Shown: positions 2 through 7,726 of the stretch, one piece after another | How positions within the stretch are numbered: the first letter of the stretch is position 1 | How the letters are laid out: every line of letters begins with the position of its first letter | Origin: a bacterium | Lineage (GTDB): Bacteria; Fidelibacterota; Fidelibacteria; Fidelibacterales; Fidelibacteraceae | Direction of reading: 5' to 3' | Assembly (NCBI GenBank): GCA_963676395.1 | Contig: OY781066.1 | Coordinates: forward strand, 1,760,001-1,824,000 | Length of the DNA stretch: 64,000 bases | Notes under the pieces: generated by a model | The model's database searches: none | What the model was told of the DNA's origin: nothing | What the model saw: only the letters and a program-made list of their open reading frames with translations | Program-made: the position numbers and the translations under genes

Positions 2-1777
2 AATACGGCACGTACTCAAGCGGAGATCCGGGAATATATGTGTGAAGACGTCACCGGTGCCACCGGTTTGGTCGCATATTATCAAATGAGTGATGGCACA
101 GGAACCTCCTTAACGGACAATAGCGGTAATAGCATTACAGGAACGCTGACTAACATGGACAACAGCGATTGGGTCAACGATAACCAGATCCCAAACGGCG
201 ATGGAAGCACAATGCCCTACCAGATCAACGGATTGAACCAACTTTATTGGTTGTCTCAGAATTCCGCTTATTGGAGCGCGGACTTTGACCAGATCACCGA
301 TATTACCGCCACGGCAACCGAGAGCTGGGACGGGGGCGCAGGATTTACTCCGATCGGAAACAACAGTACCAGATTTACCGGAACGTATGATGGGAATAAT
401 TATGTGATCAATGACTTAAATATTGATAGAAATACCCAGATCGGTGTTGGTTTGTTCGGATATGCTTATAGCGGTGCTGCCATATCAAACGTGCATGTAT
501 TAAATATGATTATGAGTGGTGATTTTGGGATCGGGGGTGTTGTGGGTGCTTTAAATTCATCAAGTATTAGTCAATGTTCATCAACCGGTACGATCTCTTG
601 CAATCGCTATGCCGGCGGATTAGTCGGTAACTTGAACAGTGGAACGGTCAGCGAATGTTTCTCATCGGCATCAGTTAGTTACAGACCCGGGGGTAGCGGT
701 GAAGGTCTCGGGGGACTGGCAGGCTATTCCGCTGGAACGATCCGTGATTGCTATGCAACCGGTGATATCAGTGGTGATTATAATGTTGGGGGGCTCACGG
801 GAGCCGGTTTTTCGGGATCATCAACCATAAATTGTTATTCCACAGGCAGTGTCAGCGGAAGTTCACTTACTGGAGGCTTTATGGGATATGCAGACCCCGG
901 AAATGAAGATCCGTTCGACCCTTGGATGAATGAGCCGGCAGCTGTAATCACAGCTTGTTTCTGGGATACGGAAGCATCGGGTAATGCCACCAGCGATGCC
1001 GGAGCCGGTAAAACAACGGCCGAAATGAAAACACTATCCACTTACACTGATTCCAGTTGGGACTTTATTGATGAAACTGTGAATGGCACCGATAATTATT
1101 GGGGTATCAATAACGAACAACATGACGGTTATCCTTTCCTAGCTTGGGAAGATTATACTCATAACTACAGCGATACGCCTCTGCCTGTCACCTTGGCATC
1201 TTTTAAAGCTACAGATGTTAAAGGCAAGGTCAAACTGACCTGGACCACTGAAAGTGAAACGCAAAATCTGGGTTATGTGCTGGAACGAAAAGTCAATAAT
1301 TCGGATTGGTGTGAAATCGCAAGCTATGTGAGTGACGCTGCATTGCAAGGGCGTGGAACGACCAGCGAAACGCATGATTATATCTATACAGACCGTGATG
1401 TGATTGCCGGTCAAACATATGGATATCGCTTAAGCGATGTCAGTGAAAGTAATGTGATCACCGAATTGGGCGTTGTTGAAGTCACGGTTGATGCTTCAGA
1501 CGATCTGACACCGGCAAACTTCGGATTGACCAACGCTTATCCTAATCCCTTCAACCCGGTTTTGACCATTCAGTATAACCTGACAGAAAGTGCTCAGACA
1601 ACGATCAAGATCCTGAACCTGGTGGGCCAGACGGTCGCCGTGCTGGATAATGGCTTCCGAGCCGCCGGTTTTCATGAGCTACAGTGGCAAGCGGATCATG
1701 CAGCATCGGGGATTTATTTTATCGAGATCATTTCTGGTAAGAAAAAAGATTTTAACAAGATATTATTAGCAAAGTAA
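2..1777 (+). CDS. Secreted GLUG-repeat protein with LamG-like tail, Ig-like domain and T9SS-type C-terminal sorting domain (5' truncated by window)
   Basis: Frame is open from base 2 (NTARTQAEIREYMC..GLVAYYQM, LamG-like end). Contains GLUG repeats (GGLVG, GGLAG, GGLTG, CYATGDISG), an LPVTLASF linker and a C-terminal AYPNPFNP...SGIYFIEI...KILLAK. Confidence 0.85.
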   Translation, partial: NTARTQAEIREYMCEDVTGATGLVAYYQMSDGTGTSLTDNSGNSITGTLTNMDNSDWVNDNQIPNGDGSTMPYQINGLNQLYWLSQNSAYWSADFDQITDITATATESWDGGAGFTPIGNNSTRFTGTYDGNNYVINDLNIDRNTQIGVGLFGYAYSGAAISNVHVLNMIMSGDFGIGGVVGALNSSSISQCSSTGTISCNRYAGGLVGNLNSGTVSECFSSASVSYRPGGSGEGLGGLAGYSAGTIRDCYATGDISGDYNVGGLTGAGFSGSSTINCYSTGSVSGSSLTGGFMGYADPGNEDPFDPWMNEPAAVITACFWDTEASGNATSDAGAGKTTAEMKTLSTYTDSSWDFIDETVNGTDNYWGINNEQHDGYPFLAWEDYTHNYSDTPLPVTLASFKATDVKGKVKLTWTTESETQNLGYVLERKVNNSDWCEIASYVSDAALQGRGTTSETHDYIYTDRDVIAGQTYGYRLSDVSESNVITELGVVEVTVDASDDLTPANFGLTNAYPNPFNPVLTIQYNLTESAQTTIKILNLVGQTVAVLDNGFRAAGFHELQWQADHAASGIYFIEIISGKKKDFNKILLAK

Positions 1778-1822
1778 AATGAATTAATAAGAAGACGAAT
1801 AGATAAAATAAATAATTATTAA

Positions 1823-1850
1823 TTGACAATTTTATATTTATTTTTATCTT
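1823..1850 (+). promoter_or_regulatory. Putative sigma70 promoter for the 1989-6003 operon
   Basis: TTGACA(1823-1828)-N16-TATCTT in a very AT-rich intergenic gap. Confidence 0.4.
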
Positions 1851-1988
1851 TTGGTACATTATATTGACTTATGTTTAATAATTAATGATAACACAATAAA
1901 TTACTATTTGAGCTTATTTAAATAATGTGAGTAGCTATGCAAGTTGAGTTGATTTGTAAGTTATTGATTTATAGGAAATTATAAAGCT

Positions 1989-2213
1989 ATGGAAAAAGAT
2001 CCAAAAAACGTCAAGAAAGAAACGACGGTTCCGGTTGAAGGTTCACTTGGGCTATTGGCATTGGGTGCTGTAGGGATTCGTGCATGGAAAGAAAGAAGAA
2101 AAGAAGTCGGATATATTAATCTTAATACCAATTTCATTAAGAAAAAACCGGAGGGGTTGAAGGCCGAGGCAAACAAGAAAACTCAGGTCCAAGGAAAAGA
2201 GGACAAAAAATGA
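1989..2213 (+). CDS. Small protein consisting mainly of a PEP-CTERM-like motif (VPVEGSLGLLALGAVGIRAWKERR)
   Basis: 74-aa ORF with AGGA upstream; its stop overlaps the next start (ATGA 2210-2213); VP-x-x motif, hydrophobic helix, then basic cluster. Confidence 0.75.
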   Translation: MEKDPKNVKKETTVPVEGSLGLLALGAVGIRAWKERRKEVGYINLNTNFIKKKPEGLKAEANKKTQVQGKEDKK

Positions 2214-4225
2214 GTAAACGCAAAGCGAATAAAGTCCTCTTGATTGGTTGGGACGCCGCCGACTGGAAAGTGATCAACAAACTCATTGATGAAGGCAAAA
2301 TGCCCACGATGAGCAAATTCGTGAATGAAGGTGTGATGGGAAATCTTGCAACATTAGATCCTCCTCTATCACCCATGCTTTGGACCAGTATAGCCACCGG
2401 TAAACACGCCGATGAACACGGCATTATGGGCTTTATACAGCCCAACAAGAATGGTGACGGCGTTACGCCCGTACTGTCTACCTCCCGAAAAGTAAAAGCC
2501 TTGTGGAATATCCTCATGCAGGAAGGTATGAAGTCCAATGTTGTTAGCTGGTGGCCCTCGCATCCCGCTGAACCCATTGATGGAATATATGTTTCAAACT
2601 TTTATCATAAACTCAGCAGTCGCGTCAATTTTCAAAAGCCTATGTCGGACTCAACGGTTCACCCAAAGGAATTACACAAAATCCTTGAAGATTTACGCGT
2701 TTTCCCATGGGAATTGACAAGCGAGCATTTACTCCCCTTTGTGCCGAATGCGGCCAAGATCAACCAAGAAAAAGATTACCGTCTGAATTCGATCGCTAAA
2801 ATTCTTGCCGAGACGGCGACTATTCATTCTGCGGCCACCTATGTAATGGAAAACAGTGAATGGGACCTCATGGCCGTTTACTACGATGGCATTGATCACT
2901 TCGGTCACGGTTTTATGAATTATTATCCGCCAAAGATGGAAAAAGTCGAACAAAAAGATTTTGAACTCTACAAAGGTGTGGTTGAAGCCGGTTACCGTTT
3001 TCATGATATGATGCTGGAGCGTTTGCTTGAATTGGCGGGTGAAAACACTACGGTTATTATTTGCTCCGACCATGGATTTCATTCGGATCACTTGCGCCCA
3101 AAAAGCTTATCAAAAGCTCCTGCCGCTCCTGCTGCGCAACATCGACCGTTTGGAATTTTTGCCGCGAAAGGCCTTCATATTAAAAAAGATGAGATCGTTT
3201 ACGGTTCTACAATATTGGATATTACTCCGACTATTCTGGATCTATTTGGATTGCCTATCGGTGAAGACATGGTGGGAAAACCCATTTTGCAGATGTACGA
3301 AAATCCTGAAGCGCCTGATTATATCCCATCCTGGGAAAACGTTCCCGGTGAATGTGGCATGCATGCCGAAGAACAGCGAAGCGATCCCTGGGCGGACAAA
3401 GAAGCCATGGAGCAGCTGATCGCACTGGGATATATTGAAGCACCGGGTGAAGATGTAAAAGAATATGTCGATAAAACGGCACGTGAATCCAAATTCTATC
3501 TTGCTCGTACATATCTTGACTCTAATCGCCCTCAGAAGGCGTTGGATATTCTCGAAACTATTTATAAAGAAGCACCTGATCAAGCTCGTTATGGTCAGTA
3601 TCTGATCAAATGTTATCTTGAATTGAATCGTCCTGACGATGGGATGAGGGTTCTTGAAAAATTAAGAAAGGCTTTTCCAAAAAGTGTAACACAAGCCAAT
3701 TTGTTGGAAGCACGCTTATGGCTGAAAAAAGGCGACATTGATCTTGCACAAGATTTTCTTGAAAAAGCAAAGAATATGTCAGAGGATAATTTTACGGCCA
3801 CGCTAGAACTGGGAAACGTTTACTTAATGAAAAAGATGTATACCAAAGCCGAAACATGCTATTTGGAATGTATTAAAATCAATCCCAGTTCACCTATGAG
3901 CCATTTTGGTTTAGGCAGAACTTATCTTCAACTGGAAAAGAACATGGATGCGGCTGAGCAATTGATAACTGCCGTCTCCTTGAAATATTTTTTCCCGGTA
4001 GCGCATTACTTTCTTGGTGATGCCTTGTTGAGGTTGAACTATCGCGAGAGAGCGCTGGAGGCCTATCAGATCGCTATTCAACAGGCACCGGGGATGGAAA
4101 AAGCACATAAGCGATTGATCAAGCTTTATAAGGAGATTTTTGACATGCCGGATAAGGCTAAGGAGCATGAAGATTTCATTAAAGAAAAGATTGAACCGAT
4201 CAAAAAGAAGAAAGAGAAAGCATGA
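2210..4225 (+). CDS. Alkaline phosphatase superfamily (type I phosphodiesterase/NPP-like) protein with C-terminal TPR repeats
   Basis: Motifs LLIGWDAADW, LSPMLWTSIATG, DGIDHFGH, SDHGF, ILDITPTIL, EQLIALGYI, followed by TPR helices (HFGLGRTYLQL, AHYFLGDALL); no signal peptide. Confidence 0.85.
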   Translation: MSKRKANKVLLIGWDAADWKVINKLIDEGKMPTMSKFVNEGVMGNLATLDPPLSPMLWTSIATGKHADEHGIMGFIQPNKNGDGVTPVLSTSRKVKALWNILMQEGMKSNVVSWWPSHPAEPIDGIYVSNFYHKLSSRVNFQKPMSDSTVHPKELHKILEDLRVFPWELTSEHLLPFVPNAAKINQEKDYRLNSIAKILAETATIHSAATYVMENSEWDLMAVYYDGIDHFGHGFMNYYPPKMEKVEQKDFELYKGVVEAGYRFHDMMLERLLELAGENTTVIICSDHGFHSDHLRPKSLSKAPAAPAAQHRPFGIFAAKGLHIKKDEIVYGSTILDITPTILDLFGLPIGEDMVGKPILQMYENPEAPDYIPSWENVPGECGMHAEEQRSDPWADKEAMEQLIALGYIEAPGEDVKEYVDKTARESKFYLARTYLDSNRPQKALDILETIYKEAPDQARYGQYLIKCYLELNRPDDGMRVLEKLRKAFPKSVTQANLLEARLWLKKGDIDLAQDFLEKAKNMSEDNFTATLELGNVYLMKKMYTKAETCYLECIKINPSSPMSHFGLGRTYLQLEKNMDAAEQLITAVSLKYFFPVAHYFLGDALLRLNYRERALEAYQIAIQQAPGMEKAHKRLIKLYKEIFDMPDKAKEHEDFIKEKIEPIKKKKEKA

Positions 4226-4788
4226 TCACGATCGTATCCGGATTACCCAGAAGCGGAACCTCACTCATGATGCAAATGCTTGAAAAAGGCGGTATGCCGA
4301 TTTTGACGGACGGTGTTCGTAAACCTGACGATAATAATCAAAACGGCTATTATGAATATGAAAAAGTAAAAGGCCTGATGAAGGATAACAGTTGGCTGGA
4401 TGAGGCTGAAGGTAAGGTGGTTAAAGTAATATCCGGATTACTGTCGTTTTTATCTGACAATCATGAATATAAGATAATCTTAATGCGACGGGATATTGAA
4501 GAAGTATTAAGCTCTCAGGCTAAAATGCTGGAACGGCTGGGCACCTCTCAAAAAGTCGACCCCGGGATCCTAAAGATGACCTTTGAAAAACAATTTGAGA
4601 TGGTCAGGACAATGATGCTGAAGAAAGAGAATATGCAGTTTGTTGAAATTTCGTATCGTGATCTTGTGTTGGCACCCGAAAATGAGATTAAAAAGATCAA
4701 CGGATTTTTTGGAAATATTTTTAATCAAGAAATAATGATCACGGCGATTGATAAAACACTTTATAGAGAAAAGAAATTGGATCTGTAA
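4222..4788 (+). CDS. Sulfotransferase family protein
   Basis: 5'-PSB loop VSGLPRSGTSLMMQML, NQNGYYE, 3'-PB motif ILMRRDIEEVLSS; ATGA overlap with the upstream gene. Confidence 0.85.
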   Translation: MITIVSGLPRSGTSLMMQMLEKGGMPILTDGVRKPDDNNQNGYYEYEKVKGLMKDNSWLDEAEGKVVKVISGLLSFLSDNHEYKIILMRRDIEEVLSSQAKMLERLGTSQKVDPGILKMTFEKQFEMVRTMMLKKENMQFVEISYRDLVLAPENEIKKINGFFGNIFNQEIMITAIDKTLYREKKLDL

Positions 4789-4809
4789 AGCAAAAAATGG
4801 AGATAGAAA

Positions 4810-6003
4810 ATGAAAAAGAAAACATCACGTACCGTAGAGAAACTGCAATTAAATAAGATTGCGGGTTATTCCTTGCTTACCGGAGCAACTATGTTGCTGG
4901 CACCGATAAGCGCTAAAGCGGATATTGTTCATGTGGATCCCGAGGATATTATTGTAGACAAATCAAACAACTATGACATTGATATTGATAATAATGGGAT
5001 CAATGATTTTAAAATTCGACAAGGAGATATAAATTTGCCATTTTCATCATACCAGTCAGATCTTACAGTAAGTGCTTATGAAGGAAATTATATTTCTACA
5101 TCAAATGGATGGATTGCAAAACAATCGAGCAGTATTTCAGTTAACAGCGCGAATATTTGGAAGAACGCCGCTCGCTTTTTAAGTGGTACTAGATATTATA
5201 GTAGTTCTTGGATGACATTAAATGGGAATTGGGAAAGCAATGCCGATGAAAAGTATTTTGGTATTAAATTTGATATTTCCGGTTCAACCCATTATGGCTG
5301 GATAAGGGCTAGCGTAGAGAACAATGTAGGAGATTTAAAGGTCACCATTCATGATTGGGCCTACGAGGATCAGCCGAATACTTCGATAAAGACAGGCGAG
5401 ACGGTTCTTCCCATTGAATTGGCGAATTTTGCTATTGACGAAGAAGACGGAGCTGTGCGGTTGAATTGGCAAACCGCCTCCGAGACTGAGAACAGCGGGT
5501 TTATTATTCAGAGGAAAACTGTTGGTTCCGATTGGGAAAACTTAGTTGATTTTTATAGCGATCCTAAACTGGCAGGACAAGGGACAACAAGTGAAACACA
5601 TGATTATTCCTGGTTGGATAATAGTGTTGAGCCTGGAATGAGCTACCAATACCGTCTGGGTGATGTCGATCATGCGAATACGATCGTTTGGCACGATGCA
5701 GTTGACATTACGGTCTCTGAAGAACTCGCGCACATGCCGGCTGAGTTCGGTTTGCAGTCAGCATTTCCCAACCCATTTAATCCCACGCTCACTATTCGAT
5801 ACGATTTGACCGAAAGTGCCAAGACTAGCGTTAAGATTTTAGATCTGGCGGGCCAGACGGTCGCCGTGCTGGATAATGGTTTCCGAGCTGCCGGTTCTCA
5901 TGAGCTGCAGTGGCGGGCGGATGATGCTGCATCAGGGATCTATTTTGTGCAGTTGCAATCCGGGGATCAACTTGATTTTCAGAAAGTACTTTTAGTTAAA
6001 TAA
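4810..6003 (+). CDS. Secreted protein (HYGWIR...WAYE domain) with Ig-like domain and T9SS-type CTD
   Basis: Signal peptide ending AKA-DIVH; DIDNNGINDF; YFGIKF..THYGWIR..DWAYEDQPN; LPIELANF linker; AFPNPFNP...SGIYFVQL...KVLLVK. Confidence 0.85.
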   Translation: MKKKTSRTVEKLQLNKIAGYSLLTGATMLLAPISAKADIVHVDPEDIIVDKSNNYDIDIDNNGINDFKIRQGDINLPFSSYQSDLTVSAYEGNYISTSNGWIAKQSSSISVNSANIWKNAARFLSGTRYYSSSWMTLNGNWESNADEKYFGIKFDISGSTHYGWIRASVENNVGDLKVTIHDWAYEDQPNTSIKTGETVLPIELANFAIDEEDGAVRLNWQTASETENSGFIIQRKTVGSDWENLVDFYSDPKLAGQGTTSETHDYSWLDNSVEPGMSYQYRLGDVDHANTIVWHDAVDITVSEELAHMPAEFGLQSAFPNPFNPTLTIRYDLTESAKTSVKILDLAGQTVAVLDNGFRAAGSHELQWRADDAASGIYFVQLQSGDQLDFQKVLLVK

Positions 6004-6024: not shown

Positions 6025-6044
6025 TGGCCGGCAATTGCCGGCCA
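6025..6044 (+). terminator. GC-rich palindrome/terminator after the 1989-6003 operon
   Basis: Perfect 20-bp palindrome TGGCCGGCAATTGCCGGCCA followed by TTT. Confidence 0.55.
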
Positions 6045-7480: not shown

Positions 7481-7726
7481 ATGTATTATGTTTACATCCT
7501 GAAAAGTGAAATCAATTCAAAAGAAACATATACAGGTTATAGCAGTGATCTGAAAAAGCGATTAACCGCGCATAACAATGGTGAGTGTAGGCATACTTCA
7601 AAATATAGGCTATGGAAAGTTATTTGGTACAGTGCTTTTGAAGATAAATTAAAAGCAATTCAGTTTAAAAAATACCTGAAATCCAGTTCAGGAAAAGCAT
7701 TTACAAATAAAGGATTAATTAATTGA
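7481..7726 (+). CDS. Small GIY-YIG nuclease family protein, probably inactivated
   Basis: YYVYILKS..YTGYSSDLKKRLTAHNNG..HTSKYR; FKKYLK in place of the usual FEKYLK. Confidence 0.85.
   Translation: MYYVYILKSEINSKETYTGYSSDLKKRLTAHNNGECRHTSKYRLWKVIWYSAFEDKLKAIQFKKYLKSSSGKAFTNKGLIN

What the first reader, a model, noticed from the sequence alone, without database searches (positions are those of the whole stretch)
1989..6003. Candidate undescribed protein-modification cassette: free-standing PEP-CTERM-like peptide + AlkP/TPR enzyme + sulfotransferase + T9SS-type cargo
Seen: four co-oriented genes, the first three coupled by ATGA overlaps, with an AT-rich promoter region before and a palindrome after. 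The 74-aa first gene has no signal peptide or cargo domain but carries VPVEGSLGLLALGAVGIRAWKERR. Established: this resembles the PEP-CTERM exosortase signal (VPEPxS/TLxLLxLGxxGL..RRR), normally the C-terminal tail of a secreted protein. From my recollection (not searched), the HYGWIR..(D)WAYE..PN..I..G domain of the fourth gene is often followed by exactly such a tail in PVC/Acidobacteria. Here that position holds LPIELANF-Ig-T9SS CTD instead. Inference: the cargo swapped export tags while the old tail was kept as a separate gene. That would mean the motif has a second job, such as a docking or membrane-tether subunit or a trans-acting leader for the cytoplasmic TPR-AlkP enzyme and PAPS-dependent sulfotransferase, which may sulfate or phospho-modify the cargo, the peptide or a glycan.
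Basis: partly seen in the sequence, partly recalled or inferred. Interest (0 to 1): 0.85.

Follow-up and report, generated by a model that had tools for sequence, protein, structure and literature searches.

The report
Free-standing sorting-tail peptide partnering a sulfotransferase enzyme
A tiny conserved gene encodes, on its own, the tail that related secreted proteins in other bacteria carry at their end, and it appears to be a docking partner for a neighbouring cytoplasmic phosphatase-like/sulfotransferase enzyme pair, pointing to a widespread, undescribed protein-modification cassette.

Summary
The four co-oriented genes exist as described. The 74-aa ORF is a real gene: it has 70 small homologues, 14 invariant core residues and dN/dS of about 0.12-0.16. 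In 401 genomes of the phylum it occurs in the same 5 that hold the AlkP-TPR orthologue.

The cassette is helix, AlkP-TPR, sulfotransferase and "HYGWIR" beta-sandwich cargo. It recurs across many phyla. The 16-residue helix GSLGLLALG..G...W plus basic residues takes four mutually exclusive forms:
- free-standing, mostly with T9SS-tailed cargo;
- the C-terminal tail of the HYGWIR protein, passing the PEP-CTERM model, with exosortase in 15 of 16 such genomes;
- fused to the N-terminus of AlkP-TPR;
- fused to the N-terminus of the sulfotransferase.

The window's genome has no exosortase but has PAPS-synthesis genes. Co-folding puts the helix on the cap of the AlkP domain, not the TPR (score 0.84, best control 0.00). 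A third of the helix cores carry a charge or His at their centre, so membrane spanning is not the conserved property.

Best reading: a portable docking or activating tag for a cytoplasmic AlkP/sulfotransferase machine acting on HYGWIR cargo before export. The chemistry is untested. Three literature searches found no description.

The parts
1778..1988 (+). AT-rich intergenic spacer upstream of the cassette
   Evidence: GC is about 0.31. The sequence was read. One sigma-70-like site lies at 1823-1850, but such sites are not enriched over shuffles.
1989..2213 (+). 74-aa free-standing tail peptide. Its core is PVEGSLGLLALGAVGIRAW (residues 15-33), followed by KERRK and a Lys-rich tail.
   Evidence: It has 70 small homologues and 14 invariant columns in 41 sequences. 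dN/dS is 0.12-0.16. It occurs as a single copy in the genome. It lies directly upstream of AlkP-TPR in 45 of 80 genome loci and 30 of 80 metagenome loci. It is predicted to bind the AlkP domain.
2210..4225 (+). Cytoplasmic AlkP-superfamily enzyme (residues about 1-410) with a C-terminal TPR array (about 420-660). No signal peptide is seen by inspection.
   Evidence: PF01663 scores 102 bits, with TPR families alongside. Invariant residues include D15, T48, S54, D226, H230, D287 and H288. Foldseek matches sulfatases, NPP and phosphonate monoester hydrolases at E about 1e-10. At least 7974 homologues exist, many fused to a sulfotransferase.
4222..4788 (+). 188-aa sulfotransferase, coupled to the AlkP-TPR gene by an ATGA overlap
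   Evidence: PF13469 scores 47 bits and PF00685 scores 37 bits. The homologous domain is fused to the C-terminus of AlkP-TPR in 70 of 80 genome loci. It is a single copy in the genome.
4810..6003 (+). Secreted HYGWIR-domain protein: signal peptide, all-beta domain (residues about 37-195), Ig-like region and T9SS type A C-terminal domain
   Evidence: TIGR04183 scores 36.5 bits against a cut-off of 23. The AF2 model has pLDDT 86 and is all-beta. 102 HYGWIR ORFs were found in AlkP-TPR loci. It is the only HYGWIR protein in the genome.
6025..6044 (.). Perfect 20-nt palindrome, 22 nt after the stop of gene 4
   Evidence: Its function was not tested. It was not called as an intrinsic terminator.

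Best explanation
The four genes form one conserved cassette. The 74-aa gene encodes, as a separate polypeptide, the specialised C-terminal tail helix of HYGWIR-family secreted proteins (G-S-L-G-L-L-A-L-G-x-x-G-x-x-x-W, then basic residues). In this organism the helix is not an exosortase signal.

It is a portable docking or activating tag. It binds a groove on the cap of the AlkP domain of the cytoplasmic AlkP-TPR enzyme, which works with a PAPS-dependent sulfotransferase. Where the cargo's C-terminus is free (PVC group, Acidobacteria, Gammaproteobacteria), the tag sits on the cargo and can double as a PEP-CTERM signal. Where the C-terminus is taken by a T9SS domain, as here, the tag is supplied in trans or fused to one of the enzymes.

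Shown: gene reality, homology of the peptide to the tails, the four configurations, synteny and co-occurrence, absence of exosortase, and presence of PAPS genes. Predicted: direct binding to the AlkP cap. Inferred: the enzyme pair modifies the HYGWIR cargo, or the peptide, by a sulfate and/or phospho-ester in the cytoplasm before Sec and T9SS export.
For: Gene reality:
- 70 small homologues and 14 invariant columns.
- dN/dS of 0.12-0.16 against 0.02-0.03 for the AlkP gene, with dS saturated.

Co-occurrence:
- The small ORF is in 5 of 401 phylum genomes. AlkP orthologues at E<=1e-157 are in the same 5.
- The own genome has exactly one copy each of helix, AlkP-TPR, sulfotransferase and HYGWIR, all in this cassette.

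Configurations:
- Genome loci: 45 free, 14 tail-of-HYGWIR, 2 fused to sulfotransferase, 1 fused to AlkP, of 80. No locus holds two kinds.
- Metagenome loci: 30 free, 17 tail-of-HYGWIR, 1 fused to sulfotransferase, of 80.

Tails and fusions:
- Fused tails are nearly identical to the peptide (P0191, P0194, P0195). They pass the PEP-CTERM models (TIGR02595 at 20-29 bits against 16; PF07589 at 33-35 bits).
- Helix plus AlkP-TPR fusions: P0085, P0110, P0159, P0188, P0095.
- Helix plus sulfotransferase fusions: L030, L077, L096.

Specificity of the tail:
- 36 generic PEP-CTERM tails of the same genomes score <=2.8 bits on the peptide HMM. The AlkP-adjacent tails score 15-22 bits.

Co-fold and genome context:
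- Co-fold score 0.84, best of 3 controls 0.00. This mark was reached by 116 of 157 solved complexes and 2 of 215 mismatches. The runs share at least 70% of their contacts and the partner pLDDT is at least 61.
- Exosortase is absent from the own genome.
- cysC, a cysN/C-like gene and a cysD-like gene are present.
Against: - Binding is a model's prediction. The controls were unrelated natural proteins, not other hydrophobic or PEP-CTERM helices, so generic stickiness of a hydrophobic helix is not excluded.
- No covariation supports the interface: 3 of the 30 highest-MI columns lie in it, against about 2.5 expected.
- AlkP enzymes from loci without a detectable helix keep the interface equally well: 0.91 against 0.91.
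- 14 of 80 genome loci and 29 of 80 metagenome loci show no helix. Three loci with IPTL-CTERM-tailed HYGWIR proteins have none either.
- The window's own helix, GSLGLLALGAVGI followed by R, is about as hydrophobic as generic PEP-CTERM tails (KD19 of 1.42 against a median of 1.33). Membrane insertion here is therefore not excluded.
- No substrate, modified residue or reaction is known.
- Ser19 is replaced by A, N, M or G in some homologues.
- The loci were picked by similarity to AlkP-TPR, and related genomes are not independent samples.
Confidence: 0.55

Rival explanations
1. Membrane tether. The helix spans the inner membrane, N-terminus out and C-terminus in, and holds the AlkP-TPR/sulfotransferase enzymes at the cytoplasmic face. 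There they act on a membrane-proximal substrate: a lipid-linked glycan, or the cargo's tail during export.
For: - The helix is homologous to PEP-CTERM tails.
- A basic cluster follows the helix, in line with the positive-inside rule (established knowledge).
- The helix is fused only to the N-termini of cytoplasmic enzymes, through 40-60-aa basic linkers.
- The window's helix is as hydrophobic as generic PEP-CTERM tails.
Against: - 25 of 70 distinct cores carry K, R, D or H at the helix centre, for example LALGYKGL and LALGDIGL (list).
- HYGWIR tails such as ATLGLLAKGALALDLWRRE and ATLGVLAQGSRALSVWRQKQ keep the motif but are polar, with KD17 of 0.4-1.3.
- Invariance of 14 residues is unusual for a simple anchor.
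- The co-fold puts the helix in a groove of the soluble AlkP domain.
- No glycosyltransferase or flippase gene is a conserved part of the cassette.
Confidence: 0.22
2. The small protein is itself the substrate. It would be a RiPP-like precursor that AlkP-TPR and the sulfotransferase bind and modify, for example at Ser19 or a tail Tyr, before it is released or inserted.
For: - It is a small gene translationally coupled to two modifying enzymes.
- It is predicted to bind the catalytic domain.
- Residues 44-51, the conserved Y.NPN.NF region, also touch the enzyme in the model.
- PF13469 is, from my recollection, the family that holds the peptide and protein tyrosine sulfotransferases.
Against: - The invariant part is the helix, not a variable core.
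- Ser19 is not universal.
- The cassette holds no protease or exporter.
- The same helix is fused to the enzymes themselves and to 200-400-aa cargo proteins. That fits a recognition tag better than a product.
- HYGWIR genes, often in 2-5 tandem copies, are the variable partner.
Confidence: 0.12
3. The helix is an ordinary exosortase (PEP-CTERM) substrate, or a decaying remnant of one, with no function of its own in this genome.
For: - It gives sub-threshold PEP-CTERM matches.
- Its fused relatives are true PEP-CTERM proteins in exosortase-bearing genomes.
Against: - The own genome (one contig, 95% complete) gave no match to PF09721 or TIGR04128 and only a sub-threshold TIGR04178 match (14 bits, cut-off 23).
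- 15 of 29 genomes without the cargo-borne tail (the free and enzyme-fused forms) show no PF09721 match, and 11 show only weak partial ones.
- The peptide has no signal peptide and 41 residues follow the motif.
- It is under purifying selection and near-invariant across phyla.
Confidence: 0.04

Closest known systems
PEP-CTERM / exosortase protein sorting (Pfam PF07589, TIGR02595; Haft and colleagues, recalled and not read here)
   Same: The layout is a P-x-E/P motif, a Gly/Leu/Ala-rich helix, then a basic cluster. The fused versions on HYGWIR proteins pass the curated models and sit in exosortase-bearing genomes.
   Different: Here the element is a free-standing 74-aa protein with no signal peptide and 41 residues after the motif, in a genome without exosortase. 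The tail subclass has its own signature (LG.LALG..G...WR) that generic PEP-CTERM tails do not match. It is tied to a cytoplasmic enzyme and occurs fused to that enzyme.
Leader-peptide-guided peptide/protein modification (RiPP enzymes activated by a leader in cis, in trans or fused; RaxST sulfation of RaxX). Recalled, not searched.
   Same: A short conserved recognition helix is found on the substrate, as a separate peptide, or fused to the enzyme. A cytoplasmic sulfotransferase acts before export.
   Different: The tag is C-terminal on 200-400-aa folded cargo. No RRE-type leader-binding domain, protease or dedicated exporter is present. The docking site is predicted on an AlkP-superfamily domain. 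No modification has been shown.
O-GlcNAc transferase type architecture (TPR array plus catalytic domain)
   Same: The TPR array resembles the OGT TPRs most among natural proteins (E 3.5e-14 by sequence; 1e-36 by profile). It is joined to catalytic domains, as in a protein-modifying enzyme.
   Different: The catalytic domains are AlkP-like and sulfotransferase rather than a GT41 glycosyltransferase. The predicted peptide contact is not on the TPR.
AlkP superfamily: S1 sulfatases, phosphonate monoester hydrolases, NPP
   Same: The fold matches (Foldseek E 5e-11 to 8e-10, probability 1.00, TM about 0.45-0.5). Invariant Asp/His metal-ligand positions are kept, and Ser54 sits at the nucleophile position (the assignment is by my reading of the motifs).
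   Different: No solved relative was found for the AlkP domain by sequence: every row shown was a TPR match, all 38 hits and the best 60 of 334. The enzyme is cytoplasmic. It lacks the C/S-x-P-x-R formylglycine motif and has a large helical cap (residues about 150-215 and 257-276) that is the predicted peptide site.
T9SS type A cargo
   Same: Gene 4 has a signal peptide and a C-terminal domain that passes TIGR04183. 79 ORFs in the genome carry the same Ig-plus-CTD module.
   Different: The N-terminal HYGWIR domain has no Pfam or NCBIfam model. Its family uses PEP-CTERM, IPTL-CTERM, polar-helix or T9SS tails in different lineages.

Membership tests
PEP-CTERM sorting signal (small ORF) | Score at or above the curated cut-off of PF07589 / TIGR02595 | tested here: not met
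   PF07589 scores 14.5 bits against 20.7. TIGR02595 gives no row at E<=0.1; only NF050011 appears, at 15.5 bits against 24.
PEP-CTERM sorting signal (small ORF) | Lies at the extreme C-terminus of a protein that has an N-terminal signal peptide | tested here: not met
   The motif is at residues 15-37 of 74. 14 residues precede it with no hydrophobic signal, and 41 follow W33.
PEP-CTERM sorting signal (small ORF) | A cognate exosortase is present in the genome | tested here: not met
   PF09721 gives no match. TIGR04178 gives 14 bits, below its cut-off of 23. TIGR04128 gives no match. The genome is one contig and 95% complete.
PEP-CTERM sorting signal (small ORF) | A membrane-spanning helix followed by a basic cluster | tested here: inconclusive
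   The basic cluster is present. The window's helix has 13 uncharged residues and KD19 of 1.42, close to generic tails (median 1.33). However, 25 of 70 family cores have a mid-helix charge or His.
PEP-CTERM sorting signal (tails of HYGWIR homologues elsewhere) | Model cut-off reached, C-terminal position, exosortase in the genome | tested here: met
   P0194, L083 and L051 score 20-29 bits on TIGR02595 against 16. PF07589 gives 33-35 bits. 15 of 16 such genomes have a strong exosortase match.
AlkP superfamily, type I phosphodiesterase/NPP-like (gene 2) | Family model over its cut-off, AlkP fold, conserved metal-ligand and nucleophile positions | tested here: met
   PF01663 scores 102.4 bits against 23. 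Foldseek gives probability 1.00 to sulfatases, NPP and PMH. D15, S54, D226, H230, D287 and H288 are invariant in 16 and 23 sequences. Their roles are assigned by inference.
PAPS-dependent sulfotransferase (gene 3) | Family model over its cut-off; PAPS-binding motifs; PAPS supply in the cell | tested here: met
   PF13469 scores 47 bits against 27, and PF00685 scores 37.3 against 22. The GLPRSGTS and RRD..E...S motifs were read by eye against recalled 5'-PSB and 3'-PB motifs. An APS kinase and a CysD-like gene lie at genome positions 914-918 kb.
T9SS type A cargo (gene 4) | C-terminal domain over the TIGR04183 cut-off, plus a signal peptide | tested here: met
   TIGR04183 scores 36.5 bits against 23. 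The signal peptide was read by eye. T9SS machinery genes were not searched.
RiPP-type leader/precursor system | Precursor with leader plus variable core, a leader-binding (RRE) domain, and a protease or exporter in the cluster | tested here: not met
   No such genes lie in the 4-gene cassette or in the related loci inspected. The conserved part is the helix, and the flanks vary. The resemblance is functional analogy only.
HmuY-like all-beta fold (HYGWIR domain) | Structural similarity clearly above background | tested here: inconclusive
   The best VIA match has Z 7.2, rmsd 4.2 A over 125 aligned residues, to BfrB. HmuY relatives give Z 6.1-6.7. This is within the tool's stated background of 7-8. 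Foldseek gave nothing at E<=0.001.

The most novel reading that the evidence does not exclude
The LG-LALG-G-WR helix is a portable recognition and activation tag for a large, undescribed family of cytoplasmic AlkP-TPR-sulfotransferase protein-modifying enzymes. On this reading, a whole subclass of "PEP-CTERM sorting signals" is read first in the cytoplasm by an enzyme, before export. When a lineage moves the cargo to T9SS, the tag survives as its own gene or is welded onto the enzyme. The system would place sulfate and/or phospho-ester groups on secreted HYGWIR beta-sandwich proteins in more than ten phyla.
Probability: 0.3. Interest if true: 0.9.

Novelty: new variant of a known kind. Interest (0 to 1): 0.8.

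Why it matters
C-terminal sorting tails such as PEP-CTERM are treated as signals read only by membrane sortases. Here one tail subclass is genetically tied to a cytoplasmic enzyme pair. It occurs on the cargo, alone, or fused to either enzyme, as a recognition or activating tag would.

The enzyme family is very large: at least 7974 homologues at about 50% identity across phyla. It has no assigned function. Its partner HYGWIR domain has no Pfam or NCBIfam model.

If the reading is right, this defines a new, widespread route of protein sulfation or phospho-modification before secretion in environmental bacteria. It also gives a simple assay: three or four small genes and a mass shift. It further explains why small "orphan" PEP-CTERM-like ORFs exist in genomes without exosortase.

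Tried and rejected
- Expression: the look-up of sequencing runs listed no RNA holder. No reads were laid, so nothing can be said on expression.
- Promoter and terminator scans were not above shuffles.
- Covariation between helix positions 27/28 and AlkP columns was not enriched at the predicted interface. 3 of the top 30 columns lie in it, against about 2.5 expected. The test is confounded by phylogeny and by near-invariant interface residues.
- Interface conservation was compared between helix-linked loci (98) and loci with no helix (31). There was no difference, 0.91 against 0.91. For this test I left out L021, L057, L059, L072, L075 and L086, truncated AlkP domains, and no-helix loci with less than 1.2 kb upstream.
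- My first argument that KD19 below 1.6 means "not transmembrane" was dropped. 36 generic PEP-CTERM tails give a median of 1.33, and only 6 of 36 reach 1.6. Only the mid-helix charges and the polar tails are used.
- The HYGWIR fold gave no clear relative.
- NF050011 (PFE-CTERM) is not this family. It missed the AlkP-adjacent tails of 4 genomes and the free peptides.
- Our-findings index: three look-ups returned nothing.
- ESM Atlas: only unnamed Bacteroidota clusters, at 0.85-0.87.
- Literature: "PFE-CTERM" gave 0 papers. "PEP-CTERM" with "sulfotransferase" and "alkaline phosphatase" gave 0. "PEP-CTERM" with "sulfotransferase" gave 1 unrelated listing, an Acetobacteraceae genome survey seen as a listing only.
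- In-frame helix-AlkP fusions were not found among the 80 metagenome loci, although tblastn spans suggested them. There the helix is a separate upstream ORF.
- A spurious ORF was rejected.

Full report
**1. Observation**

The window holds four co-oriented ORFs on the + strand:
- 1989-2213, 74 aa
- 2210-4225, 671 aa
- 4222-4788, 188 aa
- 4810-6003, 397 aa

The first three are joined by ATGA overlaps at 2210-2213 and 4222-4225. The fourth follows a 21-nt gap. The spacer before the cassette has GC of about 0.31. A perfect 20-nt palindrome lies at 6025-6044. Consensus promoter and terminator sites are not more frequent than in shuffles, so transcription signals are not shown.

- Gene 2 has PF01663 at 102 bits plus a TPR array.
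- Gene 3 has PF13469 at 47 bits and PF00685 at 37 bits.
- Gene 4 has a T9SS type A C-terminal domain (TIGR04183, 36.5 bits against a cut-off of 23).
- The small ORF matches PEP-CTERM only below threshold: PF07589 at 14.5 bits against 20.7. Its only NCBIfam row is NF050011 at 15.5 bits against 24.

**2. The small ORF is a real, strongly constrained gene**

A search of the 5.8-billion-protein collection gave 70 proteins of 46-80 aa at E<=1. An alignment of 41 of them has 14 invariant columns, E17 to I30 plus W33. The core reads (I/V)PVEGSLGLLALGAVGI..W, with variable flanks.

Against two genomes of the same genus, dN/dS is 0.16 and 0.12. The first 480 codons of the AlkP gene give 0.03 and 0.02. 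dS is saturated, so these are rough figures.

In 401 genomes sampled from the phylum, the small ORF is found in 5. Strong AlkP-TPR orthologues (E<=1e-157) are found in exactly the same 5. One further genome has only a distant paralogue at 31% identity. In all 5, the small ORF lies directly upstream of AlkP-TPR. In the 4 whose contig runs on (the own genome, G102, G021, G036), the sulfotransferase follows it, with HYGWIR proteins beside them. The G114 contig ends inside the AlkP gene.

The window's own genome is one contig of 2.34 Mb, 95% complete. It has exactly one copy each of the small ORF, AlkP-TPR, the sulfotransferase and the HYGWIR domain, all in this cassette. In contrast, 79 ORFs carry the Ig-plus-T9SS tail.

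**3. The cassette is widespread, and the helix occurs in four forms**

AlkP-TPR has at least 7974 homologues at E<=1e-5 among 8000 scored candidates. They are about 50% identical across many phyla. Many forms of 845-950 aa also carry PF13469/PF00685.

I fetched the 80 best loci from species genomes and 80 from metagenomes. I scanned their six-frame ORFs with HMMs of the small ORF, the HYGWIR domain, the sulfotransferase and the tail.

| Form of the helix | Genome set (of 80) | Metagenome set (of 80) |
|---|---|---|
| Free small ORF | 45 | 30 |
| C-terminal tail of a HYGWIR protein | 14 | 17 |
| Fused to the N-terminus of the sulfotransferase | 2 | 1 |
| Fused in frame to the N-terminus of AlkP-TPR | 1 | 0 |
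| HYGWIR with IPTL-CTERM-like tail, no helix | 3 | 0 |
| No helix | 14 | 29 |
| Too little upstream DNA | 1 | 3 |

Further points from the tally and the neighbourhood tables:
- In the genome set, the free ORF lies just upstream of AlkP-TPR in nearly all cases.
- Two of the 14 genome loci with no helix, L072 and L075, have PEP-like tails by eye.
- No locus combined two forms.
- The sulfotransferase is fused to AlkP-TPR in 70 of 80 genome loci.
- A HYGWIR ORF is present in 61 of 80 genome loci, often in 2-5 tandem copies.

These loci were chosen by likeness to AlkP-TPR, and related genomes are not independent samples.

**4. The peptide is the tail of HYGWIR proteins**

A search for longer proteins with the peptide profile returned 13 hits. 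I read 10 of them. Nine are HYGW-domain proteins of 167-265 aa whose C-termini match the peptide. Examples are ...TVPVEGSLGLLALGAAGVVAWRQRR (P0191) and ...VPEPGSLGLLALGAVGLAAWRKRR (P0194).

Such tails pass the curated PEP-CTERM models. TIGR02595 gives 20-29 bits against 16 for P0194, L083 and L051. PF07589 gives 33-35 bits.

They form a dedicated subclass. In three genomes with 16-64 PEP-CTERM matches each, I scored 36 generic tails from the 30 best loci. They reach at most 2.8 bits on the peptide HMM. The AlkP-adjacent HYGWIR tails of the same genomes score 15-22 bits.

NF050011 (PFE-CTERM) is a different family.

**5. Exosortase and PAPS**

The own genome gave no match to PF09721 or TIGR04128, and only a sub-threshold TIGR04178 match (14 bits, cut-off 23). 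I then searched 48 genomes behind the loci with PF09721:
- 15 of the 16 with PEP-type HYGWIR tails have a strong match (E<=7e-24).
- Of 29 others, nearly all with the free helix: 15 have no match at E<=0.001; 11 have only weak partial matches (E 8e-10 to 9e-4, covering roughly the second half of the model); 3 have stronger ones (2.7e-72, 2.3e-16, 2e-11).
- The three IPTL-type genomes have partial matches (E 3e-9 to 1e-6).

The own genome has two APS-kinase domains. One lies in a 638-aa frame, which I read as CysN/C. A PAPS_reduct-family gene, which I read as CysD, lies at 914-918 kb. No PF01747 ATP-sulfurylase was found. PAPS supply is therefore plausible.

**6. Fusions to the enzymes**

- Five protein clusters (P0085, P0110, P0159, P0188, P0095; 743-772 aa) carry the helix, then a 40-60-aa basic linker, then AlkP-TPR. 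P0177 is probably a truncated sixth. L011, from a Dehalococcoidia genome, is such a locus.
- L030, L077 and L096 encode the helix followed by a sulfotransferase domain. In these loci AlkP-TPR lacks its usual fused sulfotransferase.

Such fusions are classic evidence that the helix works physically with these enzymes.

**7. Where the helix binds, and is it a membrane anchor?**

Co-folding the full AlkP-TPR (alignment A2) with the peptide (A1) gave a score of 0.84, against a best of 0.00 for 3 controls. This mark was reached by 116 of 157 solved complexes and 2 of 215 mismatched pairs. The runs agree in at least 70% of their contacts, and the partner pLDDT is at least 61. The tool's verdict was that the model supports binding but does not show it.

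The interface joins peptide residues 15, 17-31, 34 and 44-51 to AlkP residues 139, 161-214 and 264-271. These are helices of the cap of the AlkP domain, not the TPR. The controls were unrelated proteins, not other hydrophobic helices, so generic stickiness is not excluded.

Two evolutionary checks gave no added support.

On membrane spanning:
- 25 of 70 distinct cores of free peptides have K, R, D or H at the centre of the helix, for example LALGYKGL.
- A set of HYGWIR tails keeps [ST]LG.LA.G...L..WR but is polar, for example ATLGLLAKGALALDLWRRE.
- The window's own helix is about as hydrophobic as generic PEP-CTERM tails.

Membrane insertion is therefore not the conserved property of the family, but it is not excluded for this copy.

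**8. The enzymes and the cargo**

Sequence search against solved structures, by single protein and by profile, showed TPR matches only. All 38 hits and the best 60 of 334 fall in the TPR array. The best natural hits are the O-GlcNAc transferase TPRs.

The AF2 model of the AlkP domain (pLDDT 79) matches S1 sulfatases, phosphonate monoester hydrolases and NPPs about equally (E about 1e-10, TM about 0.45-0.5). D15, S54, D226, H230, D287 and H288 are invariant. I read them as metal ligands, with Ser54 at the nucleophile position. The sulfatase C/S-x-P-x-R motif is absent. Neither enzyme has a signal peptide by inspection.

The HYGWIR domain folds as an all-beta domain (pLDDT 86) with no clear solved relative. 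Foldseek found nothing at E<=0.001. The best VIA match has Z 7.2 to HmuY/BfrB-type proteins, which is within background. No Pfam or NCBIfam model covers it.

**9. Most likely mechanism**

The cassette contains no glycosyltransferase, flippase, protease or exporter. Its variable, often multiplied member is the HYGWIR protein. I therefore favour direct protein modification.

In this model the cytoplasmic AlkP-TPR plus sulfotransferase machine recognises the helix through the AlkP cap. When the helix is on the cargo, it brings the cargo to the enzyme before Sec export, and it can later serve as a PEP-CTERM signal. A T9SS domain must itself occupy the C-terminus. In T9SS lineages the helix is therefore supplied in trans or welded to an enzyme. 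This implies the enzyme needs the helix bound, as an activating or structural ligand, much as RiPP enzymes can be activated by a leader in trans (an analogy from recollection).

Cargo recognition might then use the TPR array and the conserved L..YS..A.A presequence of the family. That step is speculation. The reaction, whether sulfate ester, phospho-ester or both, and the modified residue are unknown.

My odds:

| Reading | Probability |
|---|---|
| Cassette is functionally linked and the peptide is homologous to the cargo tail | about 0.9 |
| Direct binding to the AlkP domain | about 0.6 |
| Docking/activating-tag model as a whole | 0.55 |
| Membrane tether | 0.22 |
| Peptide as substrate | 0.12 |
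| Plain exosortase substrate or remnant | 0.04 |

**10. Novelty**

Three full-text searches found no description. Subscription journals and supplements are not covered. Earlier notes of this scan hold nothing on it. The parts belong to known families. The new elements are the system itself and the use of a PEP-CTERM-type tail as a free-standing or enzyme-fused partner of a cytoplasmic enzyme.

Noticed in passing
window 4810-4930; alignment A3 of 67 HYGWIR proteins: The signal-peptide region of the HYGWIR family carries a conserved L..YS..A.A motif (here KIAGYSLLTGA). It is kept whether the protein ends in a T9SS, PEP-CTERM or polar tail. A conserved presequence is unusual and could be a second recognition element.
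   Followed up: partly
L057, L059, L086 (Nitrospirae and Desulfobacteraceae genome contigs): HYGWIR proteins directly upstream of AlkP-TPR-sulfotransferase end in IPTL-CTERM-like tails (...VPTLNEWG...). One scores 18.2 bits on TIGR04174 against a cut-off of 20.5. No helix ORF was detected in these loci.
   Followed up: partly
L112, L134, L135, L143, L145, L158, L164, L170 (metagenome contigs): HYGWIR proteins end in polar versions of the tail (ATLGLLAKGALALDLWRRE, ATLGVLAQGSRALSVWRQKQ). They have no PEP motif and low hydropathy.
   Followed up: partly
window 2-1777: The upstream gene is another T9SS cargo. It has GLUG motifs and the same Ig-like-plus-CTD tail as gene 4. It is not part of the conserved cassette.
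   Followed up: no
own genome C1:912,900-919,300 (L090-L092), outside the window: A cluster holds an APS kinase gene, a 638-aa frame with a second APS-kinase domain, and a PAPS_reduct-family gene. I read this as cysC, cysN/C and cysD.
   Followed up: partly
G404 contig C37, about 1,241,300-1,242,200, just beyond locus L066: A PFE-CTERM match (NF050011, 25.7 bits, over its cut-off) and an exosortase-family frame lie side by side, by coordinates about 10 kb from an AlkP-TPR-sulfotransferase locus that has three PEP-tailed HYGWIR genes. This assumes that C37 is the contig that holds L066. Such proximity was not seen in the one other genome where I compared coordinates (G402, on the same assumption about contig numbering).
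   Followed up: no
window 7481-7726: An 81-aa ORF begins MYYVYILKS...YTGYSSDLKKRLTAHN. From recollection it looks like a GIY-YIG nuclease domain. It was not searched.
   Followed up: no
L013, L014, L116: In some Chitinophagales-type loci without a helix ORF, the gene directly upstream of AlkP-TPR-sulfotransferase is a 590-650-aa polytopic membrane protein ending ...GAEYFWFF.... Its identity was not searched.
   Followed up: no
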